Shown here piece after piece: positions 25,237 to 50,065 of a DNA stretch of 64,000 nucleotides. The translations under genes and the position numbers were made by a program. The notes under the pieces were generated by a model that saw only the letters and a program-made list of their open reading frames with translations, was not told the DNA's origin and did not search any database. Origin of the DNA: a virus (taxonomy: Duplodnaviria; Caudoviricetes). The stretch is from positions 1 to 64,000 of IMG/VR virus record IMGVR_UViG_3300044297_000138; one strand, given 5' to 3'. Numbering within the stretch: position 1 is the first letter of the stretch; each line of letters opens with the position of its first letter.

Positions 25237-28200
25237 ATGGCAAATACAGTTACCACACTAAATTACGCAAACACCTTTGGTGATTGGTTAGTTGCGACAG
25301 ATGCTTTGATTAGTGAGAATAATATTCTGGCTACAGGAGATTATACCAAACCATCTGGCACATTGTTTCTAAACGAAACCACTCAAAATGCTTTGATTGC
25401 CAATGGTAGTGTTGTTGTTCAGAAACAATTGCTTGTTCAAGGTTCAGGTTCATCCACAACCATGGATAGAAACTTGACTGTTGGCGGCCAAGTATACTTC
25501 ACCAACACAACTTTAGGTTTGACACACACAGGACAGGCCAACTTAAATGGATTGGTTCTAGTTCAAGGTCCAGGAATCGGTATTCAGGTATCTAATAGTG
25601 CGTATGTTGGTGGGAATACCACAATACAATATAATACAATTACAAATACCATCCAAGCCAACGCATCAGTAAACACTTCAAATTTAAGTGTAACCAGAAC
25701 AACCTATACCAATACATTACAAGCAAATACAAATGCAAACACCAGAACATTGAGTGTTACTGGTGTAACCTATACAAATTATTTGGAAGCAAATACAACT
25801 GTCAATACAGGCACAATTAGTATTTCTTCTACTGCACACACAGATACATTACAAGCAAACACAAGTGTTTTGACCGCAACCTTAACGGCAAATACATTGG
25901 TTAATGCAGCCAACGTTGTTGCTGGTGTAATCAGTTCTTCTGGTACTGTAACTGCATCACAGGTTCAAGCAAATAATTCTGTGTATGCAAACAATGTTGT
26001 TGCAAATAATTCGGTCATTGGAACGATTATATCAGCTAATGATTCCATTAGTGCAATTAATTCTCTATATGTTAGTACAGTTCAAGCCAACTCTAGCATT
26101 ACAACAGGAACCGTAACTGCAAACACATTAGTAAATGCAGCAAATATTGTATCAACAGGTTCAATTAGTGCAGCAAGTTCTTTGTTTACAAATTTAGTTC
26201 AAGCTAATACTGGAATCGTAACAGGAATTTTAGTAGCAAATACATCAGTAACCACACCAAATGTTGTTGCAGGTACAATGAGTTCTTCTGGTACTGTATC
26301 AGTATCTAGACTACAAGCAAACAGCACAATCAATACTGCTTCTGGTTATGCCGATGTATGGCAAGCCAACGTAAGAGTTAATGCACCAAATATTGTAACT
26401 GATGCCTTGTCTGTTTCAGGCACAGAATATGTTGGCAATACTATTGCAAATACTTCTATAACAACACCAGTTTTAGCAGTCACAAACAGAATTAATGCGA
26501 ATTCTGCCACTGGTTATTTCAATAACATACAAACCTTGGGTAAAGTAAGTGTTGGTGGTGATTTTGTAATCAACGGAACAACAGTATACAATTCAAACAA
26601 CTTAACATTAAGTGCTCAAAACAACAATCAAATTTCGTATTTGTCTGTTTATAGAACAGGTGCAAATGCGGCCATTCGTTGGAATGAACCACAATTATAT
26701 TGGGACATATTGAATGTCAATAGTTTAAATTATTATAGAATTTTAACTGACGAATATTTTAATGATACTACAACCAGTACAAGCACCACATCAGTTGCAA
26801 CTGCAAACTCCGTAAATGCGGTAAGTTTACGTGCTACAAGTGCAGGAGTATATGCCAACGGTGCGTTCAGACAAGCCAATGCGGCCTTCGCTGCAGCTAA
26901 TAATGTGGGTCCACAAATACAACCTACATTCACTCAAGCAAATGCGGCATTTGCACAAGCGAACGCATCTTATTCAAGAGCAAACACATCATCCAACACA
27001 TTTGTTGGTACATCCGGTTCTATTACTCCATCATCTGGTGTAATTTCATTCACAAGCAATAATGGTTTAACGATTGTTGCCACATCAGCCAACAATTTGG
27101 CAATCAGCACATCACAAGATTTAAGAACCACAGGAACACCAACTTTTGGTGGTCTATCTTTGACTGCACCTTTGGCTTTATCAGAAGGTGGTACAGGACA
27201 AACATCAGCTTCTGGTGCATTGAACGCATTGTTGCCAACAGGAACAACCGCAGGATATGTGTTGACTACTGGTGGTCCAGGTAACTTCTATTGGGCCGCA
27301 GGCGGTGGTGGCGGCGGTGGAGGTGCAGTACCTGGTACAACAATTAACTCAACACGTTTGAGTTACACAGCAAACGGACAATCTGGTTATACAGGTAACT
27401 CTTTCATTGTACCACCAGCAAAAACATCTACACAAGTTCGTGCCTATATTAATGGTGTTCGTCAATTTGAAAGTGAATATACTTTATCACTAAGTTCTTC
27501 TTCAAATACAATTGCTTTCTTAACAACACCAGCGTTAAATGATTCCATATTGGTTGAAGTTGATGGTTATTATGTCAATCCATACTATGCAAACAACATT
27601 GCATATACAATTAATAACAGTATTGATCCAACAGCAAGTACAATTCAGTTGGCAATAGACGGATTAACTAGTAAGGTTACTTCTTATTATGCAAACTTGG
27701 CATCAACATCAGCACAATCTTTTGGTGGTGTGGTAACAGGTAGAACTATGGCTGCGGGTACAAGCAATACTGCATTTGCTACAACCGCATATGTTCAAAA
27801 CCTTGTCAACGGCGGAAATAGTTTGACAGCTAGTGTTACTGGTAATGCTGGCACAGTAACGAATGGTGTATATACAAATGGAAGTTATTCAAATCCATCT
27901 TGGATCACATCTCTAGCCAATACAAAAATTACTGGAACATTTGCAGTCGGTTCAATTACAGGTTTGGCTGCATCAGCCACTACTGATACAACCAGTGCAA
28001 GTAACATTACATCTGGAACATTAGACGCTGCAAGATTATCAACTTCTGGTGTAACAGCAGGAATATACGGTACATCTTCTTCTGTTCCTGCTATTACTGT
28101 TGATGCTTATGGTAGAATAACATCAGTATCAACATATAATGTTTCTATTTCTTCAGGTTCTGTTTCTGGATTGGCCGCATCGGCCACAACCGATACAACT

Positions 28201-28776
28201 AATGCAGGAAATATTACAAGTGGAACACTAAACGCAGCTAGATTGCCTACAATATCAGCAGGTTCAATTACAGGTTTGGCCGCATCTGCTACAACAGATA
28301 CAACCAGTGCTACAAACATCACAACAGGAACATTAGGTGCGGCAAGATTGCCATACTCAATGGACCAAAGTGTTGCAACAACAAATAACGTTCGTTTCAA
28401 CTCTCTAGGTATTGGTACCGCTGCATCAGGAACTGCTGGTGAAATTCGTGCAACAAATGAAATTACTGCATACTACTCTGATGACAGACTAAAAACAAAA
28501 CTAGGTACAATTGAAAATGCATTAGACAAAGTTTCTTCATTGAATGGTTTCTATTACGAACCAAACCAAACTGCACAAGACTTGGGTTATGAAGTCAAGA
28601 AACATGTTGGTGTTTCTGCTCAACAAGTTCAAAATGTTTTACCTGAAGTTGTTAAAGATGCACCTATCGGTCAAGGTTATTTGACTGTTCAATACGAAAA
28701 ATTAGTACCACTATTAATTGAGGCCATTAAAGAATTGAAGGCTGAGATAGAAGTTCTAAAAGGAAATAATAAATGA
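25237..28776 (+). CDS. Tail fibre with C-terminal intramolecular chaperone (peptidase S74)
   Basis: NTF..W...T N-terminus, QANT-type beta repeats, YYSDDRLK, GVSAQ.V..VLPEVV, V.YEKLVPLLIEAIKEL. Confidence 0.85.
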   Translation: MANTVTTLNYANTFGDWLVATDALISENNILATGDYTKPSGTLFLNETTQNALIANGSVVVQKQLLVQGSGSSTTMDRNLTVGGQVYFTNTTLGLTHTGQANLNGLVLVQGPGIGIQVSNSAYVGGNTTIQYNTITNTIQANASVNTSNLSVTRTTYTNTLQANTNANTRTLSVTGVTYTNYLEANTTVNTGTISISSTAHTDTLQANTSVLTATLTANTLVNAANVVAGVISSSGTVTASQVQANNSVYANNVVANNSVIGTIISANDSISAINSLYVSTVQANSSITTGTVTANTLVNAANIVSTGSISAASSLFTNLVQANTGIVTGILVANTSVTTPNVVAGTMSSSGTVSVSRLQANSTINTASGYADVWQANVRVNAPNIVTDALSVSGTEYVGNTIANTSITTPVLAVTNRINANSATGYFNNIQTLGKVSVGGDFVINGTTVYNSNNLTLSAQNNNQISYLSVYRTGANAAIRWNEPQLYWDILNVNSLNYYRILTDEYFNDTTTSTSTTSVATANSVNAVSLRATSAGVYANGAFRQANAAFAAANNVGPQIQPTFTQANAAFAQANASYSRANTSSNTFVGTSGSITPSSGVISFTSNNGLTIVATSANNLAISTSQDLRTTGTPTFGGLSLTAPLALSEGGTGQTSASGALNALLPTGTTAGYVLTTGGPGNFYWAAGGGGGGGGAVPGTTINSTRLSYTANGQSGYTGNSFIVPPAKTSTQVRAYINGVRQFESEYTLSLSSSSNTIAFLTTPALNDSILVEVDGYYVNPYYANNIAYTINNSIDPTASTIQLAIDGLTSKVTSYYANLASTSAQSFGGVVTGRTMAAGTSNTAFATTAYVQNLVNGGNSLTASVTGNAGTVTNGVYTNGSYSNPSWITSLANTKITGTFAVGSITGLAASATTDTTSASNITSGTLDAARLSTSGVTAGIYGTSSSVPAITVDAYGRITSVSTYNVSISSGSVSGLAASATTDTTNAGNITSGTLNAARLPTISAGSITGLAASATTDTTSATNITTGTLGAARLPYSMDQSVATTNNVRFNSLGIGTAASGTAGEIRATNEITAYYSDDRLKTKLGTIENALDKVSSLNGFYYEPNQTAQDLGYEVKKHVGVSAQQVQNVLPEVVKDAPIGQGYLTVQYEKLVPLLIEAIKELKAEIEVLKGNNK

Positions 28777-29909
28777 CAACACAGATTAGACCTTCGGTAT
28801 TAGCCAATACAACGGTTACTCCAGGAACTTATGGTAGTGCCTCTGTAATTCCAACATATACGGTTGATGCACAAGGAAGATTGACAGGGGCTACTAATGT
28901 AAGTGTTGCAATTTCTTCTGGTGCCGTGTCTGGATTGGCCACATCTGCAACTACAGATACAACCAACGCATCTAATATTACCAGCGGAACATTACCAGTC
29001 GCAAGACTGGCGACCTCTGGTGCAACAGCCGGATCCTATGGTAGTGCTTCTTCTATTCCTTCAATAACTGTTGATGGATACGGTAGAATAACTTCCGTAA
29101 GTGCCAGTTCGGTTGCAATTTCTTATACTGCTGTGTCCGGATTGGCCACTTCGGCAACCACAGATACAACCAATGCGAGTAATATTACATCCGGAACGTT
29201 GGCTGCCGCTAGGTTGGCAACCTCTGGTGTGGTAGCTGGAAATTATAACGCACCATCACTTTCGGTTGATGCTTATGGTAGAATAACATCAATAAGTAGT
29301 GTATCATTATCTGCGTCAGCAACCACAGATACAACCAATGCATCCAATATTTCATCCGGAACATTGGCGGCCGCTAGATTACCAGCAAGTGGTGTATCAA
29401 TTGGTACATATGGTGGTTCATCAAGTATACCAGTAGTTACAGTTGATACTTATGGTAGAATAACGTCTTTGTCAACTGCAACTGTATCTATTCCCGGTTC
29501 ATCAACCAACTTTCAAGTTAACTCTTTGGGTGTCGGTACTGCCGCATCAGGAACAGCTGGTGAAATTCTTGCAACAAACAATATCACCGCTTATTATTCG
29601 GACGCAAGACTGAAAGATTTCTTGGGTACCATTCCTAATGCTTTGGAAAAGGTATTATCTTTGAACGGTTATTACTTTGTTGAGAACCAAAAAGCCAAAG
29701 AATTAGGTTACAATAATAGTTCCCGTCAAGTTGGTGTTTCCGCACAAGAAGTTGAGGCGGTATTACCAGAAATTATTGCTGATGCACCAATTAATAATAA
29801 TGTTGAAGGTGCGGATTATAAGACCGTTTACTATGAGAAATTAATTCCTTTGTTGATTGAAGCCATTAAAGAACAACAAAAACAAATTGATGAATTGAAG
29901 AACAAATAA
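28773..29909 (+). CDS. Short tail fibre with S74 chaperone
   Basis: G.YG....IP..TVD.YGRIT and SATTDTTNASNI.SGTL..ARL repeats; YYSDARLK; YEKLIPLLIEAIKEQ. Confidence 0.85.
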   Translation: MTTQIRPSVLANTTVTPGTYGSASVIPTYTVDAQGRLTGATNVSVAISSGAVSGLATSATTDTTNASNITSGTLPVARLATSGATAGSYGSASSIPSITVDGYGRITSVSASSVAISYTAVSGLATSATTDTTNASNITSGTLAAARLATSGVVAGNYNAPSLSVDAYGRITSISSVSLSASATTDTTNASNISSGTLAAARLPASGVSIGTYGGSSSIPVVTVDTYGRITSLSTATVSIPGSSTNFQVNSLGVGTAASGTAGEILATNNITAYYSDARLKDFLGTIPNALEKVLSLNGYYFVENQKAKELGYNNSSRQVGVSAQEVEAVLPEIIADAPINNNVEGADYKTVYYEKLIPLLIEAIKEQQKQIDELKNK

Positions 29910-29929: not shown

Positions 29930-30271
29930 ATGGCTGCAGGATACCAAGAATTATTTGTAGAACAAGGTGCTAACTATTCAACTTCCATAACTTTGGATGA
30001 TAGTAATGGTGATGCCTTTGACTTAACTGACTACCAAGCAAAATGTCAGATGAAGAAGTCTTATTATTCCACAAATGCAACCGCTGAATTCACAACAACA
30101 ATTACAAGTCCAGGTAACGGAATCATATCTCTGTCTATGAATTCGGAAACCACAGCAAACATTGCTGCCGGACGATATGTGTATGATGTTATTATAAAAA
30201 GTTCTAGTAATACTGTGACCCGTGTGTTGGAAGGAATCGTTAATATTATACCTCAAGTAACCAAGTTCTAA
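29930..30271 (+). CDS. Small beta-sandwich virion adaptor (LtfC/BppU-N-like)
   Basis: L..EQGA......L......DLT.Y...CQM.K, G.I.LS.....T.....GRYVYDV, RVLEG...I.P.VT. Confidence 0.65.
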   Translation: MAAGYQELFVEQGANYSTSITLDDSNGDAFDLTDYQAKCQMKKSYYSTNATAEFTTTITSPGNGIISLSMNSETTANIAAGRYVYDVIIKSSSNTVTRVLEGIVNIIPQVTKF

Positions 30272-30280
30272 GGGGTCTAA

Positions 30281-30820
30281 ATGCCTTCGGTAACAGTATC
30301 ACAACCATCAGTTATTAGAGTAAAAGTTGATGGTGATTCAACTAAAGTCAAGAGCATTGGTTATAATCAAAACATAGCCGTCAAGGACGCTGTTGACGTT
30401 AATATGATTAACGCTCCGGACGGAGGCGTTTTAACATATAATGCGAACACAAAACAGTTTACTCCACAACCAATTGGTTCAAACACACAATTCAATGGTG
30501 ATTTGATTCCAAGTATTGCTGGTACCTATGATATTGGTAGTGCAGAAAAACCTTGGAAATCATTATATCTGACGGGTCAAACTATGTACCTTGGTGGATT
30601 GGTTTTTTCACAAGAACCAGAAACAGGTTCTATGGCAATAACACCAGCACCAACAGATGAATACCCTGATCCAAAAGGAATTTTAATTACACCAACGGGA
30701 AACTTTTTACCCGTGGCCACCATTGAGGGTAAACCAGTTCCTCTTGGAAACTATGCTCAAAGAGTGGCAAACACCGTGGAATATATGGCTTTTACTGGTT
30801 ATGATGCAGGATTTTTCTAA
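30281..30820 (+). CDS. Fibre-associated hypothetical protein
   Basis: D..DV.....DG.VL.YN motif; G.LIP.....YDIGS....W..LYL motif; ends DAGFF. Confidence 0.65.
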   Translation: MPSVTVSQPSVIRVKVDGDSTKVKSIGYNQNIAVKDAVDVNMINAPDGGVLTYNANTKQFTPQPIGSNTQFNGDLIPSIAGTYDIGSAEKPWKSLYLTGQTMYLGGLVFSQEPETGSMAITPAPTDEYPDPKGILITPTGNFLPVATIEGKPVPLGNYAQRVANTVEYMAFTGYDAGFF

Positions 30821-31042
30821 ATGGCAACGACATTACAAATATTAAGATCATATGCTAATACAGCTCCAGCAACATTAAATGATGGTGAGTTAGCATATTC
30901 TTTTACCGCAAACGCTTTGTATATTGGAGACAATGCCAATAACATCATCTTGATTGGTGGATCAAAATTATTGGAGAACGTTAGCGCACAAACCGCATAC
31001 GTTTCATATCAAACTTTAAACGCCGATGGTGGCGAGTTTTAA
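30821..31042 (+). CDS. Minimal Mtd_N/hyaluronidase-N-like protein (73 aa)
   Basis: LQILRS....P..L.DGELAYS....LYIG; ends DGGEF. Confidence 0.7.
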   Translation: MATTLQILRSYANTAPATLNDGELAYSFTANALYIGDNANNIILIGGSKLLENVSAQTAYVSYQTLNADGGEF

Positions 31043-31048
31043 TAAATA
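31041..31048 (+). promoter_or_regulatory. Late promoter AATAAATA
   Basis: NATAAATA upstream of the 31077 ORF. Confidence 0.55.
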
Positions 31049-31076
31049 CAGGATAGCTTAATTATAAGGACAAGAA

Positions 31077-32966
31077 ATGGCTAACACATCAATCCGCATC
31101 AAACGCTCTAGTAGTACAAGTTCACCAATTAGTTTATTATCTGGTGAATTTGCGTATTCCTACCAGTCAAACACACTTTTCCTTGGTACCTCTGATGGTT
31201 CTGGTGTTGTCAATGTGGGTGGTCAATATTATACCAGTCAAATTGATAACGCAACCGAGTTTGCAACACCACTAACTCTTGTCCGTAGAGATGCATCAGG
31301 TAATGCAGCGTTTAATAACGTTGTTGCAAACGGCCTGTTCATCGGTACATTGAGTGGTAGTGTTATCGGTGGTGCAAATACAGCCGTTCAGTTGAGCACA
31401 CCAAGAAACTTCAGTATTAGTGGCGGAGATATTAGTGCATCAGCTATTTTGTTTGATGGTACGGCTGATGTTACATTAAATGCTTCACTAGACAACGTTG
31501 CCGGTTTGTCCGCTGGCACATATGGTGGAACAACAGCCATTCCTGTCGTAACGGTTGCTGCAAATGGTCGTGTAATGGCCATTGCAAACACCAGTTTATC
31601 AACATCATTTACAATTGCTGGTGACACAGGTACAGACACATTTGATAACGGTAACACACTACTGTTTAATGGTGGTGATGGTATCACAACCGATGTTACA
31701 GATAACACAGTTTCTTTCGCAGTAGATACAACAGTTTTCCGTTCCAATACTGCAATTGTTAAACAAACCGTTGACGGTGATGTTGAAATTTCTGGTAACT
31801 TGATTGTTCTTGGTACACAAACAACAGTTAATGTTTCTACATTAAGTGTTGATGACTCTTTGATTGCACTTGCAAGAAATAATACAACAGATGCAGTTGA
31901 TATTGGTTTCTATGGACACTATGATGATGGTACAGCAAGACATGCTGGTGTTTTTAGACATGCTGGCGATAACGAGTTCTATGTTTTTGATAATTATACA
32001 GGAGAACCAACAGCCAACACAATTAATCCTGCAAGCGATAACTTCCGTGTTGCAACACTTAATGCAAATCTTAAATCACAATTTGCAAACGTTGCCACAT
32101 TAAATGTTGGAACAATCAATGTAAGTAATGCAAACCTATCCAGCTTGTTGCTTGGTTCCGCACTAACAGTCCCTAACGGTGGTACAGGTGCAACATCATT
32201 CAGTAACGGTGGTATCGTAGTTGGTTCCGGCACAGGTGCATTAACAACACTTGCAAATTCAACCTTCAGTACAACAGGTTCATCTGGTGGTAACAAAACA
32301 ATCATCGGTGTTACAGTTGATGATTATGGTCGTTTAACAAATGTAAACTATGATTACATTGGTAGTTTGACTGTTAACCAAGGCGGTACAGGCCAAACAT
32401 CATTCACCGCAGGTAGAATTTTAGTTGGTGATGGCACAAATGGAATCAAACAAATTGCCAACGTATCAGCAGTTTCTGCAACAGTTACATCGGCCAATAC
32501 AGTTGATTCGTTTGTAACAGATGACTATGGTCGTGTTACAACATTTACACAGAAGAAGATTTCTGGATTACAAGTTGACCAAGGTGGTACCGGACAATCA
32601 AGTTTCACATCCGGCCAATTGATTGTTGGTAATGGTTCAGGCGCACTACAATCAATTGCAAATAGTTCATTTACCGCAACAGGTTCTGCTGCAGCCAATA
32701 AGACAATTACTTCAGTAACTGTAGATGCATATGGTAGATTGACTGCTGCCACATTTGCTGATATTTCTGGTTTGACTGTAACACAAGGCGGTACAGGTGC
32801 ATCTTCATTCACTACAAGCGGTATCGTTTATGGTAATGGAACTGGTGCATTGCAAGTAACTTCTGCTGCTGGTACATCAGATCAAACATGGTCCAATCAG
32901 ATATTGACAACAACAAATGCTGGTGTTCCAGTTTGGACAACCACATTGGATGGAGGCCAATTCTAA
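31077..32966 (+). CDS. Tail fibre-like protein with Mtd_N-like N-terminus
   Basis: IRIKRS....P..L..GEFAYS; L.V.QGGTG.SSFT.G and VD.YGR.T repeats; ends DGGQF. Confidence 0.75.
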   Translation: MANTSIRIKRSSSTSSPISLLSGEFAYSYQSNTLFLGTSDGSGVVNVGGQYYTSQIDNATEFATPLTLVRRDASGNAAFNNVVANGLFIGTLSGSVIGGANTAVQLSTPRNFSISGGDISASAILFDGTADVTLNASLDNVAGLSAGTYGGTTAIPVVTVAANGRVMAIANTSLSTSFTIAGDTGTDTFDNGNTLLFNGGDGITTDVTDNTVSFAVDTTVFRSNTAIVKQTVDGDVEISGNLIVLGTQTTVNVSTLSVDDSLIALARNNTTDAVDIGFYGHYDDGTARHAGVFRHAGDNEFYVFDNYTGEPTANTINPASDNFRVATLNANLKSQFANVATLNVGTINVSNANLSSLLLGSALTVPNGGTGATSFSNGGIVVGSGTGALTTLANSTFSTTGSSGGNKTIIGVTVDDYGRLTNVNYDYIGSLTVNQGGTGQTSFTAGRILVGDGTNGIKQIANVSAVSATVTSANTVDSFVTDDYGRVTTFTQKKISGLQVDQGGTGQSSFTSGQLIVGNGSGALQSIANSSFTATGSAAANKTITSVTVDAYGRLTAATFADISGLTVTQGGTGASSFTTSGIVYGNGTGALQVTSAAGTSDQTWSNQILTTTNAGVPVWTTTLDGGQF

Positions 32967-33006
32967 TTGAATATATAATGTATGTTTCTTTGTGAAGGAG
33001 ATTGAA

Positions 33007-33666
33007 ATGGGAAATGAAAAATATTTAAATTATTATATTGAGGTTTTAACAAGCACAATGAATGATTGTGTAATTCGTAATGTTTCAATGCAAGCCAATG
33101 CTAAGATTTCTGAAGATGTTATTGAAGAACAGGCCGACAGAATAGAAAAACTTTCTGGTACCGTAAAGGAACTTGAAGAAGTAAACAGAAAGTTAAGAGA
33201 AGGTCAAGTTGCAAGTGAAAATAATACTATAACTGATCTGAAAAATAAATTGGTTGAAAAAGATAGAGAGTTGTCCTCAGCGTCAAATCAAATTTCTGAA
33301 TTGAATAATAAATTCAGGGATTATGATAGTGTTAAAAGCCAAGTAACACATATGGACACTTTTAAATCTGAGTTGATTAAAGCTCGTGAAGAACTTACAC
33401 GAATTCGTGGTGAAAATGACAGACAAATTGACATTTTGAATAAAAAACATGAGAAAGAAAAGGTGAATTTGGAAAAACAAATCACCGAACTCAACGCCAA
33501 AATTGATTATTTGCAATTATCTCCTGCCAAAAGAAAGAAAATTGATGAGCTAAATAAAGGAGCATCAACAGTTTCTGTTATTGATAATACAATAGAAAAT
33601 TCTACTGTAACAATAGAAGAGGCAATAGTTGATGATGGTGCAATCAAAGATGGCGGAACGTTTTAA
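33007..33666 (+). CDS. Coiled-coil hypothetical protein
   Basis: AAGGAG SD precedes ATG at 33007; charged heptads; ends DGGTF. Confidence 0.75.
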   Translation: MGNEKYLNYYIEVLTSTMNDCVIRNVSMQANAKISEDVIEEQADRIEKLSGTVKELEEVNRKLREGQVASENNTITDLKNKLVEKDRELSSASNQISELNNKFRDYDSVKSQVTHMDTFKSELIKAREELTRIRGENDRQIDILNKKHEKEKVNLEKQITELNAKIDYLQLSPAKRKKIDELNKGASTVSVIDNTIENSTVTIEEAIVDDGAIKDGGTF

Positions 33667-33670
33667 GTAA

Positions 33671-36600
33671 ATGTCAAATACATCAATACAGTTAAAAAAA
33701 TCCGGACAGACAGGTAACACTCCACCAAGCTTGGCTTATGGTGAGGTTGCTCTTAACTATGCTGACGGCAGACTGTATTACAAAACAGCCAGCAATGTAA
33801 TTTCTTATATTACCAACCAATATTCATTTTCAACAATCAATGTTGGTGGTAATCTAATTCTGGCCACGACCGGTTCTGATACATTAACACTACAGGCCGG
33901 CAACAACATCGGTTTCATAACTGATAGTTTAAATAACAAAATAACAATTACAGGAACAGCAGTATCTCTGGATCAATTTGCTAGAGATTGGGCCAACTCG
34001 GCCGGTTCTTATGCTAACTCGGCATTTACTCAAGCCAATACAGCCGTAACAAATGCGGCCACAGCCGACTCTAAAGCTGTTTCAGCTGGTTCATATGCCA
34101 ATTCAGCTTTTACCGTAGCAAACACCGATGTTACAAACGTTAGTATTACTGCTGGACAATATGGTAATACAACCACCATTCCAGTAATCACTATTGCTGC
34201 TAATGGTCGTATTACAGCAATTAGCAATGCTACCGTAAGTGGCGGTGGATCATCCTCATACATTTACAATGGAACCAGTAACGTTTATTTCTCAGGTACC
34301 AATGGTAATATTCTTGCCAATGTTGCTGGTAATACAATTGTAACCATTACTGCAAATGGCATCACAACAACCGGTGTAAGCAGCGACATTACTGGTGCAA
34401 ATAACGTTATAGCTAATTCGTTTGTTACAACCGGTTCTAGTGGTACAATTTCTGGCGCTAATAACATCTATGCGAATACATTCATTGGTGCTAATGGTGC
34501 GGTAATCGCTGGAATAAATGTTGTACCTTATTTACAATCAGCATACACACAAGCAAATACACCAAGTTATGTTGCCAATTCAGCCGCAATATATGCCAAT
34601 GGTGCCTTTACTCAAGCCAATACAGCCGTAACAAATGCCGCTACAGCAGATTCTAAAGCAGTAACATCTGGTTCATATGCCAACTCAGCTTTCACCGTAG
34701 CAAATACAGCCAACTCATCTGCAACATCCGCTGGATCTTATGCTAACTCGGCATTTACCGCAGCAAATACAGCTAGTTCAACAGCAACCTCAGCTGGTTC
34801 TTATGCAAATGCAGCCTTTATACAGGCTAATGCCGCATATGCAAAGGCAAATACTGGCGGCGGTGCAGCTTCTTATATTGCTAACGGAACAAGCAATGTA
34901 TATTTTGCTTCAGCTAATGGTAATATTATAGCCAACGTTGCTGGTAATACAATTGTAACTATTACCGCAAACGGTATCACAACAACTGGTGTGAGTAGTG
35001 ACATTACTGGTGCGAATAACGTTATAGCCAACTCATTTGTTACAACTGGTTCAAGTGGTACAATTTCAGGTGCCAATAATATCTATGCAAATACATTTAT
35101 TGGTGCAAATGCAGCTTTGATTGCTGGAATAAATGTTGTACCATATTTACAATCAGCATTTACACAGGCTAATTCTGCATACAATCAAGCCAATAATTCT
35201 TTACCTTTGGCTGGTGGAACAATTACTGGTGATTTAAGTGTATCTGGCAATTTAACTATTCTTGGTACACAAACAACTATCAATACAACATCAATTGTAT
35301 TAAATGATCCGTTGTTGTATTTGGCAAATAATAATTATTCATCCGATTTATTAGACATTGGTATTATAGGTCACTATAATTCAACAGCAAATGCACACAC
35401 TGGTGTGTTTAGAGATCCAAATAGAAAAGAATGGATTTTCTTTGAAGGTTATACTCCTGAAGTTGGTTCAAACAATTTAATTAATATTGCTGATCCAAGT
35501 TTTGCATATGCTAACGTTTATGCAAACACCTTTAAAGGTAATTTGATTGCAAATAACATATATGTAAGTGGTTATAATGTATTTACATATATCACAAATG
35601 CATATAGTCAAGCCAACTCTGCGGCAACCTACGCCAATGGTGCATTTGTTCAGGCTAATGCTGCGTTCTTACAGGCTAATACACCAGATTATGTTGCCAA
35701 CTCGGCAGCGTTATACGCTAATGGTGCCTTTGCACAAGCAAACGCTGCGTTCAATGCTGCTAATACTGGCTCAGCATACTATATTAGAAATGGTACCAGT
35801 AACGTCTATTTCTCTGGAAGTAATGGTAACATTCTGGCCAACGTTGCGGGAAATACAGTTGTAACCGTTACCGCTTCAGGAATAATAACATCCGGATCAG
35901 GAACCGGTGATATTTCTGGTGCGAATAACATTTATTCCAATAATTTTATTGGTGCTAATGGTATAGTAGTTGCTGGAATAAATGTTGTAACATATCTACA
36001 ATCAGCATTTGGTCAAGCAAACTCAGCAGCAACTTATGCTAATGCGGCCTTTACACAGGCAAATACTGATGTTACAAATATTAGTGTAACCGCCGGACAA
36101 TATGGTAACACCACTACAATTCCTGTCATTACGATTGCGGCCAATGGTCGTATTACTGCAATCAGTAATGCTGCGGTAAGTGGTGGCGGTGGTGCTTCTG
36201 GTTCTTATATCTATAATGGAACCAGTAATGTTTATTTCTCCGGAAGTAACGGCAATATTATTGCTAACGTTGCTGGTAATACAATTGTTACTGTTACTGC
36301 TAATGGTCTTGTTACGAGTGGTGTTAGTGGTGATATTTCTGGCGCCAATAATATTTCGGCAAACTCATTCATTACAACCGGATCTGGTGGTAATATAACC
36401 GGCGCCAACAATATATACGCCAACTCGTTCATTGGTGCCAACGGTGCGGTAATTGCTGGTATCAATGTTGTACCATATTTGCAGTCTGCATTTGGTCAAG
36501 CAAATTCCGCAGCAACATATGCTAACGGAGCTTTTACACAGGCTAATGCGGCATACAATCAATCAAACACTTATATATGGCCAGCAGCCAATTCAGCTGG

Positions 36601-38950
36601 TTCATATGCCAATGCGGCCTTTACACAGGCAAATACTGATGTAACAAATATCAGTATAACGTCCGGTACATATGGTAATTCAACTTATATTCCTATCATT
36701 ACAGTTTCGGCTAACGGTAGAATTAATACAATTAGTACCGTTGCAGCTTCTGGTGGAGGAGGCGGTTCTGGTTCTTACATCTATAATGGAACAAGTAACG
36801 TATACTTCACAACAACAAATGGTAACATTGTTGCAAACGTTGCTGGTAATACGATTGTAACTATTACATCAGCAGGTTTGACAACATCTGGTGCCGGTTC
36901 AGGTGATATTTCTGGTGCAAATAACGTCTACGCCAACAATCTCATTGGTGCCAACGGTGCGGTAATTGCTGGTATCAATGTTGTACCATATTTGCAGTCT
37001 GCATTTGGACAAGCGAATGCTGCATTTAATGCTGCTAATACAGGCGGCTCAGCATACTATATTAGAAATGGTACCAGTAACGTCTATTTCTCTGGAAGTA
37101 ATGGTAACATTCTGGCCAATGTTGCTGGTAATACAATTGTTACTGTTACTGCCAATGGTCTTGTTACGAGTGGTGTTAGTGGAGATATTAGTGGTGCCAA
37201 CAACATCTCTGCAAATTCGTTTATAACAACTGGTTCAGGCGGCAATATAACCGGCGCCAATAGTATTTATGCCAACTCATTCATTGGTGCCAACGGTGCG
37301 GTGATTGCTGGCGTTAATGTTGTACCATTTTTAACTGCTGCGTTTTTACAAGCAAATACTCCAAGTTATACGGCCAATTCCGCTGCAACATATGCCAATG
37401 GTGCTTTTATACAAGCAAATACAGCAACAACCAATGCGGCAACAGCCGACTCTAAGGCAGTATCGGCAGGTTCATATGCGAACTCCGCCTTTGGTGTGGC
37501 CAATTCAGCAGCAACATATGCCAATGGTGCTTTTGCACAAGCGAATGCTGCTTTCAATGCTGCCAATACAGGTGGTTCAGCTTACTATATTAGAAATGGC
37601 ACCAGTAACGTTTATTTCTCTGGTGCCAATGGTAATATTCTTGCCAATGTTGCTGGTAATACCGTATTGACCATCTCATCATCCGGAATGATAACCTCAG
37701 GTTCTATTCCTGGTGATATTTCTGGTGCAAATAACATCTATTCTAATACAATAATTGCCTATAGTAGTGCAACAGTTGCTGGTGTTAACGTTGTTCCATA
37801 TATTCAATCTATATTCACACAAGCCAATTCTGCTTATGGTTCACAGAACACAACTGGAACATATGCTAACGCTGCGTTCACCGTAGCAAATACTGCAAAC
37901 ACAACTGCAACATCAGCTGGTTCATATGCCAATGCGGCCTTCATACAGGCAAATACCGATGTAACAAACATTAGTATTACATCTGGTACATATGGCAATG
38001 CAACTTATATTCCTATTGTTACAGTTTCTGCAAATGGTAGAATTAATTCCATCAGTACCATTGCATCCGCTGGTGGCGGTGGCGGCGCAGGTACAGACCA
38101 ATATGCAAGAGATACTGCAAACGCAGCCTTCATAAAAGCCAACTCAGCCTATGCACAGGCAAATACTGGAGGAGGTGGAGGTGGTGCAGGTTCATCCGTT
38201 ATTGCAGTTGATACCTATACAGCTAACGGCGCACAAACGACCTTTGCATTATCATATTCAACATCATCAAACAATGTGATTGTTAATATTGATGGTGTAT
38301 TACAATTAAAGTCTGCATATTCCGTTTCAGGAAACACAATCACATTTACTGGAACTCCAGCAAATACTGCGGTTGTTGAAATAACAACACTAACTGGAAC
38401 AAATCTAAGTTATTATAACAGAACTTATACTGGTGATAATACATCAACAACATTTACCACGACAACTGGTGTTTCTAATGCAAGCATTATTGTTACAGAA
38501 AACGGTGTTGTTCAAGAACCTGGTGTTGATTACTATATAAGTGGTGCGAATGTAATCTTTACAACTGCACCATCAACTGGTGTGAAAATTGGAATCCGTG
38601 AATTAGCATCTACTGCTCTTGTTAGTGCAAATATTCAATTTGCTTACGATCAAGCTAATGCAGCATTCTTGAAAGCAAATACACCGGATTATGTTGCCAA
38701 CTCGGCTGCATTATATGCTAACGGTGCTTTTGCACAAGCCAATGCTGCATACAATCAGGCAAATACCGACTACACAACAATTACAGTTACTGGCGGTGTA
38801 TACGGAAATTCAAATACAATTCCAGTAATTACTGTTGCAGCTAACGGCCGTATTACTGCTATAAGTAATGTGGCGAGCTCTGGTGGTTCAGGTGGCGGCG
38901 GCGGTGTAAATCAAACCACAACAATAATATTAGCGAAAATATTCAGTTAA
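33671..38950 (+). CDS. Long repetitive tail fibre (1759 aa)
   Basis: Mtd_N-like start (IQLKKS...P..L.YGEVALNY.DG.LYYK), seven NGTSNVYF modules, ANAAF heptads, two NGV.Q-type beta domains. Confidence 0.8.
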   Translation: MSNTSIQLKKSGQTGNTPPSLAYGEVALNYADGRLYYKTASNVISYITNQYSFSTINVGGNLILATTGSDTLTLQAGNNIGFITDSLNNKITITGTAVSLDQFARDWANSAGSYANSAFTQANTAVTNAATADSKAVSAGSYANSAFTVANTDVTNVSITAGQYGNTTTIPVITIAANGRITAISNATVSGGGSSSYIYNGTSNVYFSGTNGNILANVAGNTIVTITANGITTTGVSSDITGANNVIANSFVTTGSSGTISGANNIYANTFIGANGAVIAGINVVPYLQSAYTQANTPSYVANSAAIYANGAFTQANTAVTNAATADSKAVTSGSYANSAFTVANTANSSATSAGSYANSAFTAANTASSTATSAGSYANAAFIQANAAYAKANTGGGAASYIANGTSNVYFASANGNIIANVAGNTIVTITANGITTTGVSSDITGANNVIANSFVTTGSSGTISGANNIYANTFIGANAALIAGINVVPYLQSAFTQANSAYNQANNSLPLAGGTITGDLSVSGNLTILGTQTTINTTSIVLNDPLLYLANNNYSSDLLDIGIIGHYNSTANAHTGVFRDPNRKEWIFFEGYTPEVGSNNLINIADPSFAYANVYANTFKGNLIANNIYVSGYNVFTYITNAYSQANSAATYANGAFVQANAAFLQANTPDYVANSAALYANGAFAQANAAFNAANTGSAYYIRNGTSNVYFSGSNGNILANVAGNTVVTVTASGIITSGSGTGDISGANNIYSNNFIGANGIVVAGINVVTYLQSAFGQANSAATYANAAFTQANTDVTNISVTAGQYGNTTTIPVITIAANGRITAISNAAVSGGGGASGSYIYNGTSNVYFSGSNGNIIANVAGNTIVTVTANGLVTSGVSGDISGANNISANSFITTGSGGNITGANNIYANSFIGANGAVIAGINVVPYLQSAFGQANSAATYANGAFTQANAAYNQSNTYIWPAANSAGSYANAAFTQANTDVTNISITSGTYGNSTYIPIITVSANGRINTISTVAASGGGGGSGSYIYNGTSNVYFTTTNGNIVANVAGNTIVTITSAGLTTSGAGSGDISGANNVYANNLIGANGAVIAGINVVPYLQSAFGQANAAFNAANTGGSAYYIRNGTSNVYFSGSNGNILANVAGNTIVTVTANGLVTSGVSGDISGANNISANSFITTGSGGNITGANSIYANSFIGANGAVIAGVNVVPFLTAAFLQANTPSYTANSAATYANGAFIQANTATTNAATADSKAVSAGSYANSAFGVANSAATYANGAFAQANAAFNAANTGGSAYYIRNGTSNVYFSGANGNILANVAGNTVLTISSSGMITSGSIPGDISGANNIYSNTIIAYSSATVAGVNVVPYIQSIFTQANSAYGSQNTTGTYANAAFTVANTANTTATSAGSYANAAFIQANTDVTNISITSGTYGNATYIPIVTVSANGRINSISTIASAGGGGGAGTDQYARDTANAAFIKANSAYAQANTGGGGGGAGSSVIAVDTYTANGAQTTFALSYSTSSNNVIVNIDGVLQLKSAYSVSGNTITFTGTPANTAVVEITTLTGTNLSYYNRTYTGDNTSTTFTTTTGVSNASIIVTENGVVQEPGVDYYISGANVIFTTAPSTGVKIGIRELASTALVSANIQFAYDQANAAFLKANTPDYVANSAALYANGAFAQANAAYNQANTDYTTITVTGGVYGNSNTIPVITVAANGRITAISNVASSGGSGGGGGVNQTTTIILAKIFS
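34250..37830 (+). repeat. Seven dispersed ~85-100-aa intragenic repeats
   Basis: YI.NGTSNVYF...NGNI.ANVAGNT...GANNIY.N..IG.NG...AG.NVV.YLQSA near 34255, 34870, 35775, 36200, 36770, 37052, 37580; exact 74-nt match 35768-35841 = 37046-37119. Confidence 0.9.
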
Positions 38951-45808: not shown

Positions 45809-46354
45809 ATGGCATTAACATTTATTAAATCAACAGGAATAGCAAACAGCCAAGCGTATGTCTTTGGCTCAGCCAACGTTACGGGAAACGTAGTCGCTGG
45901 CTCCGTCCTAACAAATAGTTTGTTATATGCCAATGGTTCTCCTTATGTTACTGCTAGTGGCGGCGGTAGTAGCGGCAGCACAATTTACAGCCGTTCAAGC
46001 CAAACTGCAACGGCAAACCAAAATACGTTTACAGTTGCATATACAACAGGTGCACCATTAGAAGTATTCTTAAACGGCGTATTATTAAATAGTGCAGACT
46101 ATAGTGCAACAAACGGAACAACAATTGTATTGACTGATGTTGCAGTAGCAAACGATTTAATTGAATTTGTTACATATAGCAACACTTCAATATCCAGCCT
46201 TACAATGGCTAACGTAGCAACAATAAATAGTACGAACTTAACATCCAACTTAACAATTTCCGCAGGTTATAGTGCAATGAGTGTGGGTCCATTAAGCATT
46301 GCAAACAACGTAGTCATCAGCATAGCTAGCGGACAGAAATGGGTGATATTGTAA
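45809..46354 (+). CDS. Small fibre adaptor-like protein
   Basis: A...Q.TF...Y......VFLNGV.L...DY.A.NGT.I.L domain; C-terminal SA.S.GP......V.I..G..WVIL domain. Confidence 0.7.
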   Translation: MALTFIKSTGIANSQAYVFGSANVTGNVVAGSVLTNSLLYANGSPYVTASGGGSSGSTIYSRSSQTATANQNTFTVAYTTGAPLEVFLNGVLLNSADYSATNGTTIVLTDVAVANDLIEFVTYSNTSISSLTMANVATINSTNLTSNLTISAGYSAMSVGPLSIANNVVISIASGQKWVIL

Positions 46355-46355
46355 A

Positions 46356-47366
46356 ATGGCAACCAAAGCAAGACAATTAGGATCTATAGTCGCCACGGGC
46401 GGCAGTGTTATTACCGAAATTGGTACTACTGCTCAGCGATCATCATCACCATCAAATGGTGCTATGCGTATTAATACTTCAACAGGATATCTAGAAATTT
46501 ATTATAATGGTATTTGGTCAACAATTAAAAACCTAGCCCCTCCTGTTTTCAGTTCAGGAGGAAATGGTATACTTTCTTCTAGCGGTCTTTATAATTATTA
46601 CACATTTAGCACAACAGGCAACACATCCATTACATTGTCCACAGGAGGACAAGTTGATATTTTTGCAGTAGGTGGTGGCGGTGGTGGCGGCGGAACTGAT
46701 GCATCAATTTATGGTGCTGGTGGCGGCGGTGGAGCCGCAGTTATTGGCACTTTCACACTCGCTGCCGGAACTTATACCGTATCTGTTGGTGGTGGAGGCG
46801 GTGCAGGATCATCCAACGTCACAGGTACAGGAGGTGGTGCGGCCGGAGCAAATGGAGGCGGCGCAGGCGGAAATGCCGGTGGCAGCGGTGCTTCTGGTGG
46901 AGGCGGAGGTGGTGGAGGTTGGTCTGGAATCCGAGATAGCAACGGAAATTTTTTACTTGTGGCCGGCGGCGGTGCAGGTGGCGGCGGCTCAAACGAAGGT
47001 GTTGCAAATGATGTGGCAACCGCTGGCGGCGGCGTTCAAAATAACGGCGCCAATGGCACCAATAGTACCGGCGCTAACGGATCCGCATATAGCGGCGATG
47101 GCGGTGGCTGGGGTGGTGGTGGCGGTGGATATTATGGCGGTGCAGGACAAAACACTACAAGTGGCGCAAGCAGTGGAGGTGGAAATTATAATACAGGAAC
47201 AAATACATCATCAGCAAATGGAAATTCCGGTAGCGTAGGAAGCAGTTCGCCTGTTTCCGGTGGTGGTGTACCTAATACACAGTTCACAACTTGGAGTGGA
47301 ACTGGTGGAGCAGGCGGAAGTTCTGCTTCCAATGGCAGTAATGGTCTAGTAATAATAAGATGGTAA
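46356..47366 (+). CDS. Glycine-rich adhesin-like protein 1
   Basis: GTTAQR...P..G..R.NT..G..E.Y motif; VGGGGGGG...GGGGG; ends GLVIIRW. Confidence 0.8.
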   Translation: MATKARQLGSIVATGGSVITEIGTTAQRSSSPSNGAMRINTSTGYLEIYYNGIWSTIKNLAPPVFSSGGNGILSSSGLYNYYTFSTTGNTSITLSTGGQVDIFAVGGGGGGGGTDASIYGAGGGGGAAVIGTFTLAAGTYTVSVGGGGGAGSSNVTGTGGGAAGANGGGAGGNAGGSGASGGGGGGGGWSGIRDSNGNFLLVAGGGAGGGGSNEGVANDVATAGGGVQNNGANGTNSTGANGSAYSGDGGGWGGGGGGYYGGAGQNTTSGASSGGGNYNTGTNTSSANGNSGSVGSSSPVSGGGVPNTQFTTWSGTGGAGGSSASNGSNGLVIIRW

Positions 47367-47401
47367 ATTCTATTAATTTGATAACATATACAGCATAAAT
47401 C

Positions 47402-48055
47402 ATGGCAAGCATAATCAACGCATCAACAACATCCACATCAGGCCTAGTATATTCGGCTGATGCCAGCGGAGTATTGCAGTTACAAAGTAATGGTACAACT
47501 GGTTTGACAGTAGATACCGCAGCCAACGTTTCAACCGCAAACTTATCAGTAACAGGCACTTTAACTGTGGCTGGTAATGTAATAGCAAAAAGTTTTTCAA
47601 CTGTTCAAACTACTACTTCAGGAACAAGTAAAGATTTCACCGGCATACCAAGTTGGGCTAAAAAAGTTACATTCATGTATTATAATTGCCAGACCAACGG
47701 AACTTCCAATCCAATCATTCAATTAGGCACCAGCGGAGGCGTTGTCACTAGTGGTTATATAAGCTCAGGAGCAGCTACCAACGGTGGAGCAGGTTCGTCA
47801 GCACAATATACGAATGGATTTGGTCTAGGTGGTGGCGTCGCAGCAACGAGTATATGGTCGGGAATAATGACTATTATGAATATTTCAGGCAACACTTGGG
47901 TGGCTTCAACAAGCGGCGCATATAACGATGCATCTTATGTTAGTGCGGGTGGAGGATACGTAACTCTAAGTGGTCCGTTAACTAGTATTAGATACACTAC
48001 AGTTGGTGGAACCAGTACATTGACTGCTGGAAACACCAACATCATGTATGAATAA
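47402..48055 (+). CDS. Fibre-tip-like hypothetical protein
   Basis: AD.SG.L.LQ.NGTT N-terminus; beta-rich C-terminal domain TTSGT..DFTGIPSW.K. Confidence 0.75.
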   Translation: MASIINASTTSTSGLVYSADASGVLQLQSNGTTGLTVDTAANVSTANLSVTGTLTVAGNVIAKSFSTVQTTTSGTSKDFTGIPSWAKKVTFMYYNCQTNGTSNPIIQLGTSGGVVTSGYISSGAATNGGAGSSAQYTNGFGLGGGVAATSIWSGIMTIMNISGNTWVASTSGAYNDASYVSAGGGYVTLSGPLTSIRYTTVGGTSTLTAGNTNIMYE

Positions 48056-48064
48056 GGATTAATC

Positions 48065-49081: not shown

Positions 49082-49084
49082 ATC

Positions 49085-50065
49085 ATGGCACTAATACTAG
49101 ACGGCACAAATGGAATAACATTACCAACATGGACTACTGCTGGACGTCCGAGTAATCCTAGTAATGCTCAAATAGGTTTTAATACTACATTAGGATATCC
49201 TGAATGGTATAGTTCATCATATTCTAGTTGGTTTCCGGTGTTTCAAGGCCCTCAGTACAGCATTGATTATTTGATAGTCGCTGGTGGCGGTGGTGGTGGC
49301 CAAACAATTGGTGGTGGAGGAGGTGCCGGAGGATATTTAACATCATCAGGCATTGTCAATGTTACTCCTCTGACAGCATATACTATAACTATTGGTGCTG
49401 GCGGTGCAGGAGCAGCAGGTAGTGGCACTTACAGTAGTGGAGGTGGTACTGTTGGATCAAACTCATCCGTGATAATCTCTAGCACCGTTACAGCAATTGG
49501 CGGCGGCGGCGGAGGTAACTATAGCGATGCTAGCAATGGATCTACTTCTGGCGGCTCAGGTGGTGGCGCCGGTGCAGGTCCATACGGTGCAGGTTCGTCT
49601 GGAACGGCAGGACAAGGTAATGCAGGTGGACCTGCAAATAATAATACAAATGATGGTGGCGGTGGAGGTGGCGCAGGCGCAGTTGGCGGCACCGCTACTA
49701 ACGGTACCGCTGGTGCTGGTGGCGCTGGCTTAAATTGGCAAAGTTTAGGTACTTATTACGCAGGCGGCGGTGGAGGTGGTGCAAGAAACCCAGGCGGTAA
49801 TGCTGGCGGTGCCGGTGGTAACGGAGGTGGTGGAGCAGGTGGATACGCAGCCACAGGCACCGCCGGAACTGTTAATACTGGCGGTGGTGGTGGAGGTGGT
49901 GGATATAACAACTCTGGAGCTGCTCAATACGGAGGTGGTGCAGGTGGTTCTGGTGTTGTTATTATTCGTTACGCCGGAACACAAAAAGGCACAGGAGGCA
50001 CAATCACTTCTTCAGGTGGATATACATATCATACCTTCACCAGTTCAGGAACATATACGGCATAA
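49085..50065 (+). CDS. Glycine-rich adhesin-like protein 3
   Basis: Paralog of 48065; ends HTFTSSGTYTA. Confidence 0.8.
   Translation: MALILDGTNGITLPTWTTAGRPSNPSNAQIGFNTTLGYPEWYSSSYSSWFPVFQGPQYSIDYLIVAGGGGGGQTIGGGGGAGGYLTSSGIVNVTPLTAYTITIGAGGAGAAGSGTYSSGGGTVGSNSSVIISSTVTAIGGGGGGNYSDASNGSTSGGSGGGAGAGPYGAGSSGTAGQGNAGGPANNNTNDGGGGGGAGAVGGTATNGTAGAGGAGLNWQSLGTYYAGGGGGGARNPGGNAGGAGGNGGGGAGGYAATGTAGTVNTGGGGGGGGYNNSGAAQYGGGAGGSGVVIIRYAGTQKGTGGTITSSGGYTYHTFTSSGTYTA

What the first reader, a model, noticed from the sequence alone, without database searches (positions are those of the whole stretch)
30281..33790. Four consecutive genes ending D(G/A)GxF interleaved with three Mtd_N-like N-termini: putative plug-and-socket fibre chain
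Seen: otherwise unrelated ORFs 30281, 30821, 31077 and 33007 end YDAGFF, ADGGEF, LDGGQF and KDGGTF. ORFs 30821, 31077 and 33671 begin with the same domain, (I/L)(Q/R)(I/L).(R/K)S...P..L..GE.A(Y/L)(S/N)....L(Y/F). The 73-aa ORF is essentially only that domain plus the DGGEF tail, like a pure connector. One DGGxF carrier is a charged coiled coil unlike any fibre, so the motif behaves as a portable tag. Known: a similar N-terminal domain occurs in Bordetella phage Mtd and streptococcal phage hyaluronidases, where it is the virion-proximal end. Inference: the C-terminal DGGxF peptide docks into the Mtd_N-like domain, polymerising separate gene products into one appendage.
Basis: partly seen in the sequence, partly recalled or inferred. 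Interest (0 to 1): 0.8.

Follow-up and report, generated by a model that had tools for sequence, protein, structure and literature searches.

The report
Tag-and-cap joints between phage fibre proteins
In this marine T4-like phage, each protein in a row of tail-fibre genes ends in a short Asp-Gly-Gly-x-Phe tail and the next protein starts with a small cap domain; the pairing recurs in hundreds of related phages, so it is probably an undescribed connector, though binding was not tested.

Summary
In the 174.5-kb genome only four ORFs end D[GA]GxF. They are the four consecutive genes named. Only three ORFs carry the N-terminal domain, and all three lie in the same cluster.

In 158 related IMG/VR loci the same gene order recurs: LtfC/p132-like anchor, small protein A (tag), optional 61-89-aa connector (cap plus tag), fibre F1 (cap plus tag), coiled-coil B (tag on a disordered tail), fibre F2 (cap). 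Of 211 distinct cap genes, 206 are directly preceded by a gene ending x[G/S]x[F/Y]-COOH. The tag is conserved as protein, because its synonymous codons vary freely.

A parallel pair exists. Genes starting with bona fide Mtd_N are mostly preceded by D-Φ-G-x-Φ tails. Examples are Pelagibacter phage HTVC008M and Bordetella phage BPP-1.

Direct docking of tag into cap is the best reading (about 0.6) but remains inferred. The complex predictor was closed, and the covariation I found rests on too few independent lineages.

The F1-to-B junction does not fit a simple tag-to-cap rule. The cap is only remotely Mtd_N-like.

Earlier notes of this scan report the same idea in at least eight other genomes. 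I found no published description.

The parts
29930..30271 (+). LtfC/p132-like beta-sandwich protein (113 aa), the likely virion-side anchor at the head of the module
   Evidence: phrog_3304 'L-shaped tail fiber protein assembly' E=1.7e-21. Pfam LtfC scores 23.1 bits, below the cut-off of 27. T5 p132 in the PDB matches at E=0.049. The gene directly precedes the first tag-bearing gene in 70 of 79 loci.
30281..30820 (+). Protein A (179 aa), with no cap; its C-terminal tag DAGFF lies at 30803-30817
   Evidence: Family A has 72 members of 67-178 aa, all ending in a tag.
30821..31042 (+). Connector (73 aa): cap domain at 30821-30970 (ILRSY subtype) plus tag DGGEF at 31025-31039
   Evidence: Pfam Mtd_N E=1.3e-4, below cut-off. 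The AF2 monomer has pLDDT 82 and four strands. Homologous 61-89-aa connectors occur in many loci and are absent in others.
31077..32966 (+). Fibre F1 (629 aa): type I cap at 31077-31241 (IKRS...GEFAYS...SNTLFLG) and tag DGGQF at 32949-32963
   Evidence: The C-terminal 47 aa match P-HM2 PHM2_092. F1 homologues end (L/M)(D/S/Q/E/N)GGxF in nearly all loci.
33007..33666 (+). Protein B (219 aa): conserved N-terminal helix, long helix, LSPAKRKK motif, disordered tail, and tag DGGTF at 33649-33663
   Evidence: Family B has 52 members. AF2 gives a helix at 3-169 with pLDDT>94 and a tail at 185-219 with pLDDT<50.
33671..38950 (+). Fibre F2 (1759 aa): type II cap at 33671-33835 (LKKSG...GEVALNYADGRLYYK) and no tag, so it is the distal end of the chain in this genome
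   Evidence: It starts 4 nt after the stop of B, as in the homologous loci, where the gap is 3-13 nt.

Best explanation
The six genes 29930-38950 encode one multi-protein tail appendage that is put together in gene order. The LtfC/p132-like protein anchors it on the virion. Each following component ends in a short peptide, x-D-(G/A)-G-x-F-COOH. The three copies of this peptide in a trimer insert into the trimeric N-terminal beta-prism-like cap of the next component. The chain runs A to connector, connector to F1, and B to F2. The terminal Phe and its free carboxylate would serve as the anchor. Asp at -5 would pair with the conserved Lys/Arg at cap position 10. The residue at -4 would tune which cap subtype is accepted, which orders the chain and stops the connector from polymerising on itself. 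What is shown: the pairing, its generality, its conservation at protein level and the disordered tether. What is inferred: the physical contact, its geometry and the place on the virion.
For: (1) Uniqueness: there are four tags and three caps in the whole genome, and all lie in this cluster.
(2) Generality: in 79 loci found through the cap and 79 found through the LtfC-like gene, 206 of 211 distinct cap genes are directly preceded by a gene ending x[G/S]x[F/Y]-COOH, with gaps of -1 to about 100 nt. Before any correction for relatedness, the odds ratio against other ORFs is 371. Only about 4 of roughly 3950 other ORFs carry such an end outside the module.
(3) Co-presence: when loci are ascertained through LtfC, 65 have both tag and cap, 5 have neither and 4 are truncated or ambiguous.
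(4) Protein-level selection: codon use in the tag is GAT 64 / GAC 54, TTC 80 / TTT 75, and GGT, GGC and GGA are all common. Only 38 of 164 tags hold an SD-like core.
(5) Specificity pattern: all 146 caps with K/R at position 10 follow tags with D/N at -5, and none of the 37 tags with another residue at -5 precedes such a cap. A non-Gly at -4 goes with Leu at cap position 9 in 44 of 54 cases, and Gly goes with K/R in 141 of 151.
(6) The tag sits on unrelated scaffolds: a small beta protein, beta fibres, and a coiled coil where it ends a roughly 35-residue disordered tail.
(7) The connector is optional: some loci have A-connector-F1 and others A-F1.
(8) Where B is absent, F1's tag is followed directly by a capped F2 (L124, L142, L144).
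(9) A parallel pair exists. F2 proteins ending (F/Y)DYGxL are always followed by a gene starting with bona fide Mtd_N (the profile hits Mtd 1YU0 at E=8e-23). Of 69 distinct Mtd_N genes, 42 follow D-Φ-G-x-Φ tails, against 3 of 897 other ORFs. HTVC008M gp063 ends VDLGSVA before Mtd_N gp064. BPP-1 Bbp9 ends ADLGGIA before Mtd. The Tal-like protein before hylP.1 of prophage 315.1 ends IILDGGNQ.
(10) The literature already presumes that Mtd attaches to its fibre through the N-terminal beta-prism (PMC10743442).
Against: No binding test was run. On the LtfC tree only 3 supported independent contrasts exist for the D(-5)/K-R(10) pair, so that covariation could be inherited and is not significant. F1's tag is followed by B, which has no cap, so there are four tags for three caps. 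No solved structure shows this cap or Mtd_N bound to a partner. Whether A and B are in the virion is unknown. The AF2 monomer of the connector leaves the tail without regular structure, at pLDDT 66-77.
Confidence: 0.6

Rival explanations
1. The tag does bind the cap, but B (and perhaps A) is an assembly factor rather than a fibre segment. In this reading a trimeric coiled coil with three flexible tagged tails gathers three nascent F2 N-termini, templates trimerisation, and is then displaced by the similar tag of F1. B would act like T4 gp57A or fibritin in fibre assembly.
For: B is one long helix with a disordered tagged tail. This reading resolves the count of four tags and three caps. B-less loci have F1 (tag) directly before a capped F2. 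The tags of F1 and B share the DGGxF core. P-HM2 has only a 68-aa B-like protein, ending DGPDDF.
Against: B has a strongly conserved N-terminal 40 residues and a conserved LTPAKRKK motif, which suggests further specific contacts. Its place between F1 and F2 matches that of hinge proteins such as T4 gp35. No virion proteome was available.
Confidence: 0.2
2. The tags and caps do not touch each other. Both bind a third component, for example copies of the LtfC-like protein or a baseplate protein, at each joint.
For: The LtfC-like gene heads the module in 70 of 79 loci. In T5, p132 intertwines with the first roughly 50 residues of the fibre pb1 (PMC10038345).
Against: Tag variants track the subtype of the adjacent cap inside one genome, although that genome has only one LtfC-like gene. 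The same adjacency holds for Mtd_N genes in phages with other architectures, such as BPP-1 and prophage 315.1.
Confidence: 0.1
3. There is no binding function. The conserved gene junction would instead be a scar of gene fission, a recombination linker for swapping fibre cassettes, or a translation-coupling signal (GGNGG read as a Shine-Dalgarno sequence).
For: The tag and the cap are adjacent in the DNA. DGG codons can read GGAGG. Tail-fibre genes are known to be mosaic.
Against: Synonymous sites vary freely, and only 38 of 164 tags hold an SD-like core. Gaps to the next start range from -1 to about 100 nt. The terminal Phe must be the last residue, or in a few cases the last but one. The cap is N-terminal in 313 of 318 local hits and in 149 of the 150 best representatives. 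Pieces of a split gene would still have to join non-covalently.
Confidence: 0.05

Closest known systems
Bordetella phage BPP-1 Mtd and its N-terminal beta-prism (Pfam Mtd_N PF18454; PDB 1YU0), and the streptococcal phage hyaluronidase HylP N-terminal domain (PDB 2C3F, 6X3M)
   Same: Both are small N-terminal trimer-forming domains at the virion-proximal end of a fibre tip protein, and Mtd is presumed to attach to the preceding fibre protein through it (PMC10743442). In loci related to the window, a bona fide Mtd_N gene occupies the next slot of the same chain. The proteins upstream of Mtd and of hylP also end in D-x-G-G-type tails.
   Different: The window's caps fail the Pfam threshold. hhalign gives 32% probability and the fold match is weak, with Z 2.6-3.2. 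Their tag is DGGxF-COOH rather than DΦGxΦ. No partner peptide has been described for Mtd or HylP.
T4 long tail fibre gp34-gp35-gp36-gp37
   Same: Separate trimeric gene products are encoded in assembly order and joined end to end, with a small protein at the hinge.
   Different: I detected no sequence relation. The T4 joints are not known to use a common portable C-terminal peptide and a common N-terminal cap.
T5 collar protein p132 (LtfC) anchoring the L-shaped fibre pb1, and TP901-1 BppU
   Same: An Ig-like small protein anchors the N-terminal roughly 50 residues of a side fibre (PMC10038345). The window's ORF 29930 is p132-like and heads the module.
   Different: Here a separate small tagged protein A lies between the anchor and the fibre. 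The host phage is a myovirus. The fibre N-terminus is a defined cap domain.
Anabaena myophage A-1(L) neck fibre gp82-(gp81)14-gp80 (PMC10966104)
   Same: It is a bead-chain fibre built head to tail from separate trimers, in which N-terminal hairpins of one trimer grip the C-terminal domain of the previous one.
   Different: It uses a homopolymeric repeat of one protein. No shared terminal peptide tag is reported, and I saw no sequence relation.
Terminal-peptide-in-pocket motifs, for example the bacterial SSB C-terminal tail (...DDDIPF-COOH), and donor-strand exchange in chaperone-usher pili. These are analogies drawn from my own knowledge.
   Same: In each, a short terminal peptide on a flexible tether, ending in Phe and preceded by an acidic residue, or a terminal extension, is used to link otherwise unrelated proteins.
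   Different: They are functional analogies only. There is no homology, and the mechanism here is unproven.

Membership tests
Mtd_N (Pfam PF18454) | Score at or above the Pfam gathering cut-off (26.3 bits) | tested here: not met
   The 73-aa ORF scores 22.3 bits (E=1.3e-4) and the 629-aa and 1759-aa ORFs give no hit. Five of 30 relatives match at E<=0.01. A genome-wide search gave 21.9 bits.
Mtd_N (Pfam PF18454) | Profile-level homology to bona fide Mtd_N | tested here: inconclusive
   hhalign of A2 against A8 gives probability 32% and E=5e-4, aligning columns 1-41 with 1-41. The A2 profile does not reach Mtd in the PDB at E<=1.
Mtd_N (Pfam PF18454) | Small beta-prism fold superposable on Mtd residues 1-48 | tested here: inconclusive
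   The AF2 monomer has pLDDT 82. Foldseek's best hits are HylP at E=0.3 and Mtd at E about 1. VIA gives HylP Z 3.2 and Mtd Z 2.6, with rmsd 3.0 Å over 43 residues, aligning 5-49 with 5-49.
Mtd_N (Pfam PF18454) | Position at the extreme N-terminus of a fibre or tip protein | tested here: met
   313 of 318 local hits start by residue 15 or earlier. 149 of the 150 best representatives start at residue 1-4.
LtfC/p132-like fibre anchor (Pfam PF23926; phrog_3304) | Family-model match for ORF 29930-30271 | tested here: inconclusive
   Pfam LtfC scores 23.1 bits, below the cut-off of 27. phrog_3304 matches at E=1.7e-21 over the full length. T5 p132 in PDB 7QG9 matches at E=0.049.
LtfC/p132-like fibre anchor (Pfam PF23926; phrog_3304) | Encoded next to the fibre it anchors | tested here: met
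   It is adjacent to the first tagged gene in 70 of 79 loci and is followed by a tag-and-cap pair in 65 of 74 loci.
Multi-gene end-to-end fibre of the T4 gp34-37 kind | Separate gene products physically joined in series in the virion | not testable with these tools
   The complex predictor was closed. I found no virion proteome or structure for a phage with this module.
Short linear motif on a disordered tail (protein B) | A conserved terminal peptide preceded by a poorly conserved, disordered linker | tested here: met
   AF2 gives pLDDT<50 for residues 185-219. The linker varies in length and sequence while KDGG(S/T)F is kept.

The most novel reading that the evidence does not exclude
Short C-terminal peptides (D-G-G-x-F, D-Φ-G-x-Φ, D-L-G-G-I-A and similar) and Mtd_N/HylP-type N-terminal caps may form a general docking code with cognate subtypes. 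By this code tailed phages of all morphologies would snap separately encoded proteins into long or branched fibres in gene order. That would cover marine myoviruses, the podovirus BPP-1, streptococcal siphophages and, according to other notes of this scan, giant viruses. If so, fibre architecture and the attachment point of receptor-binding tips could be read and re-wired from sequence alone.
Probability: 0.45. Interest if true: 0.85.

Novelty: new variant of a known kind. Interest (0 to 1): 0.75.

Why it matters
Tail fibres decide which host a phage infects, yet for most phages it is unknown how their many fibre genes fit together. A sequence-readable joint would have several uses.

- It would assign roles to thousands of small hypothetical proteins. 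The cap profile alone hits 15,510 protein clusters.
- It would correct annotations such as 'baseplate wedge' for capped fibre proteins in P-HM2 and HTVC008M.
- It would say how Mtd, the model diversity-generating receptor-binding protein, is held on its fibre.
- It would offer a defined junction for exchanging fibre modules in laboratory phages.

The pairing also makes a testable prediction about specificity: which tag fits which cap subtype.

Tried and rejected
No binding prediction exists here.
- PDB sequence searches with the cap profile and with F1 found nothing useful.
- Foldseek gave no match at E<=0.001.
- Tree-based independent contrasts for D(-5) against K/R(10) gave only 3 supported pairs, too few for any test. 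I therefore do not count that covariation as proof of contact.
- The Shine-Dalgarno and recombination-site explanations are rejected on codon evidence.
- The genome-contig scan gave a single prophage, in Photobacterium ganghwense.
- DNA-level and short-protein searches of isolate phages gave few hits.
- I looked for natural fusions of a tag with a cap. There were no strong internal caps in the loci. One 158-aa metagenomic ORF (P0041) reads through from IDGGSF into a cap, but it is a fragment and may be a gene-calling artefact.
- Five literature searches found no description of the tag. The library is incomplete.
Full report
**What is there**

The window is the first 64 kb of a complete 174,535-bp IMG/VR virus record. 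It carries a T4-like structural module, and the nearest isolates are Prochlorococcus myoviruses such as P-HM2.

Six co-oriented genes lie between 29930 and 38950:
- a 113-aa LtfC/p132-like protein;
- A (179 aa, ends DAGFF);
- a 73-aa connector (cap domain, ends DGGEF);
- F1 (629 aa, cap, ends DGGQF);
- B (219 aa from ATG 33007, ends DGGTF);
- F2 (1759 aa, cap, no tag).

The gaps between genes are 9, 0, 34, 40 and 4 nt.

**Is it more than chance?**

Among all 1131 six-frame ORFs of 40 aa or more in the genome, only these four end D[GA]GxF. Amino-acid composition predicts 0.03. An HMM of the three N-termini finds only these three ORFs in the genome.

**Generality**

I fetched two sets of IMG/VR loci.
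- A scan with the cap alignment returned 79 loci.
- A separate scan with the LtfC-like protein returned 79 new loci, out of more than 568 matching places.

The same colinear module recurs: LtfC-like, A (67-179 aa), optional connector (61-89 aa), F1, B (138-251 aa), F2, and sometimes a further fibre F3.

- Of 211 distinct pairs of a cap gene and its upstream neighbour, 206 have an upstream protein ending x-[G/S]-x-[F/Y]-COOH.
- Before any correction for relatedness, the enrichment over other ORFs has an odds ratio of 371.
- Outside the module such ends are almost absent.
- When loci are ascertained through LtfC, tag and cap are present together in 65, absent together in 5, and ambiguous at contig ends in 4.

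There is one systematic exception. F1's tag is followed by B, which has no cap.

The module occurs in isolates infecting Prochlorococcus, Synechococcus, Pelagibacter and Methylophilales, and in a Photobacterium prophage. The cap profile hits 15,510 clusters in the 1.84-billion-protein library. It sits at residue 1-4 in 149 of the best 150. Of those 150 proteins, 37 themselves end in a GGxF-type tag.

**Level of selection**

Synonymous codons are used freely at every tag position: GAT 64 and GAC 54, TTC 80 and TTT 75, and three Gly codons. Only 38 of 164 tags contain an SD-like core. Distances to the next start range from -1 to about 100 nt. The constraint is therefore on the peptide, and on Phe being the last residue, or in a few cases the last but one. 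It is not on a DNA or ribosome-binding signal.

**Scaffolds**

The tag is carried by unrelated architectures. An AlphaFold2 model of B shows a single helix at residues 3-169 (pLDDT above 94), followed by a tail at 185-219 with pLDDT below 50 that ends in the tag. Across homologues the linker varies in length and sequence, while KDGG(S/T)F is kept. That is the signature of a short linear motif on a tether.

The connector is little more than a cap plus a tag. It is present in some genomes and absent in others, as expected of an insertable link.

**Specificity pattern**

- All 146 caps with Lys/Arg at profile position 10 follow tags with Asp/Asn at -5. None of the 37 tags with another residue at -5 precedes such a cap.
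- Caps of the ILRSY subtype, found in connectors and in some long fibres, follow tags with Ala, Met, Ser or Asn at -4. Caps of the IKRS and LKKS subtypes follow Gly at -4.

This would order the chain and stop the connector from binding itself. On a tree of the LtfC-like proteins, however, only three well-supported independent contrasts exist. The pattern may be inherited, and I treat it as suggestive only.

**A parallel pair**

In related loci, F2 proteins ending (F/Y)DYGxL are always followed by a gene whose N-terminus is bona fide Mtd_N. The profile matches Mtd residues 1-49 at E=8e-23. Of 69 distinct Mtd_N genes fetched from IMG/VR, 42 follow D-Φ-G-x-Φ tails, against 3 of 897 other ORFs.

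Single cases in cultured phages agree:
- HTVC008M gp063 ends VDLGSVA before the Mtd_N protein gp064.
- BPP-1 Bbp9 ends ADLGGIA before Mtd.
- The Tal-like protein before hylP.1 of streptococcal prophage 315.1 ends IILDGGNQ.

**What the cap is**

- Pfam Mtd_N is sub-threshold.
- hhalign against true Mtd_N gives 32% probability, aligned position for position.
- The AF2 monomer of the connector has pLDDT 82 and four strands.
- Its best fold matches, all weak, are HylP (Z 3.2) and Mtd (Z 2.6, residues 5-49 on 5-49), together with other small trimerisation domains.

I therefore call the cap Mtd_N-like and do not file it as a member of that family.

**Mechanism**

My best reading is direct docking of the three terminal peptides of one trimer into the cap trimer of the next component. 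The chain would be anchored by the p132-like protein, as in T5, where p132 holds the first roughly 50 residues of the fibre (PMC10038345). The literature presumes that Mtd attaches through its beta-prism (PMC10743442), but I found no description of the partner peptide. No solved structure shows the joint.

The role of B is open. It may be a rod or hinge whose conserved N-terminal helix accepts F1's tag. Alternatively it may be a trimerisation or assembly factor that F1 displaces. B-less loci, in which a tagged F1 is followed directly by a capped F2, favour the view that F1's tag can serve F2.

**Earlier notes of this scan**

Notes on at least eight other genomes describe the same tag-and-cap idea. 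They agree with this reading, but they are unchecked AI notes and I do not count them as evidence.

**Verdict**

The finding is a new variant of a known kind, namely modular fibre joints. I put confidence in direct docking at about 0.6 and interest at 0.75.

Noticed in passing
L008, L011, L012, L014, L045, L055, L058, L069, L072, L089, L137, L154 (genes after F2): Some F2 proteins end (F/Y)DYGxL, and each is followed by a third fibre gene that starts with bona fide Mtd_N. In the fibres ending YILALEG, a second, cap-like segment sits internally at about residue 97-208.
   Followed up: partly
L165-L244: Other recurrent C-termini occur before Mtd_N genes. ...ESFATAIAVALG precedes 131-134-aa Mtd_N ORFs. 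...(T/V)(F/Y)V(V/I)II ends proteins of 1300-1640 aa that precede 152-aa Mtd_N ORFs. ...EIYGFV occurs in tandem Mtd_N paralogues (L207). These may be further tag classes.
   Followed up: no
P0041 (metagenomic representative, 158 aa): This ORF reads from ...NIDGGSF through 19 residues into a cap (MANTVIQLKRS...). It may be a natural fusion, a lost stop codon or a gene-calling artefact.
   Followed up: no
window 33480-33560; family B alignment: B proteins share a conserved basic motif, (Y)LQL(T/P)PAKRKK, just after the long helix, and a strongly conserved N-terminal 40 residues (MGNEKYLNYYIE...RNVSMQANAK). Neither feature is explained.
   Followed up: no
L080 (P-HM2 PHM2_094) and L163 (HTVC008M gp062-064): Capped fibre proteins are annotated as 'gp7 baseplate wedge subunit' or 'baseplate wedge initiator', and the tagged 73-aa protein as 'YadA domain-containing'. 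These are probably mis-annotations.
   Followed up: no
window 25237-28776 and 28773-29909: Two further fibre proteins with a C-terminal Peptidase_S74 intramolecular chaperone domain lie just upstream of the module and overlap by 4 nt. They carry neither the tag nor the cap.
   Followed up: no
window 46000-56700: This stretch has GC of 0.45-0.51 against about 0.37 elsewhere, and a strong positive GC skew.
   Followed up: no
L012, L013, L014, L016, L031, L072 connectors (78 aa): The longer connectors hold an extra ...AANTVVLRDxNGNIxVA... segment. It resembles the TLVRRDASGN segment that follows the cap in the window's F1.
   Followed up: no
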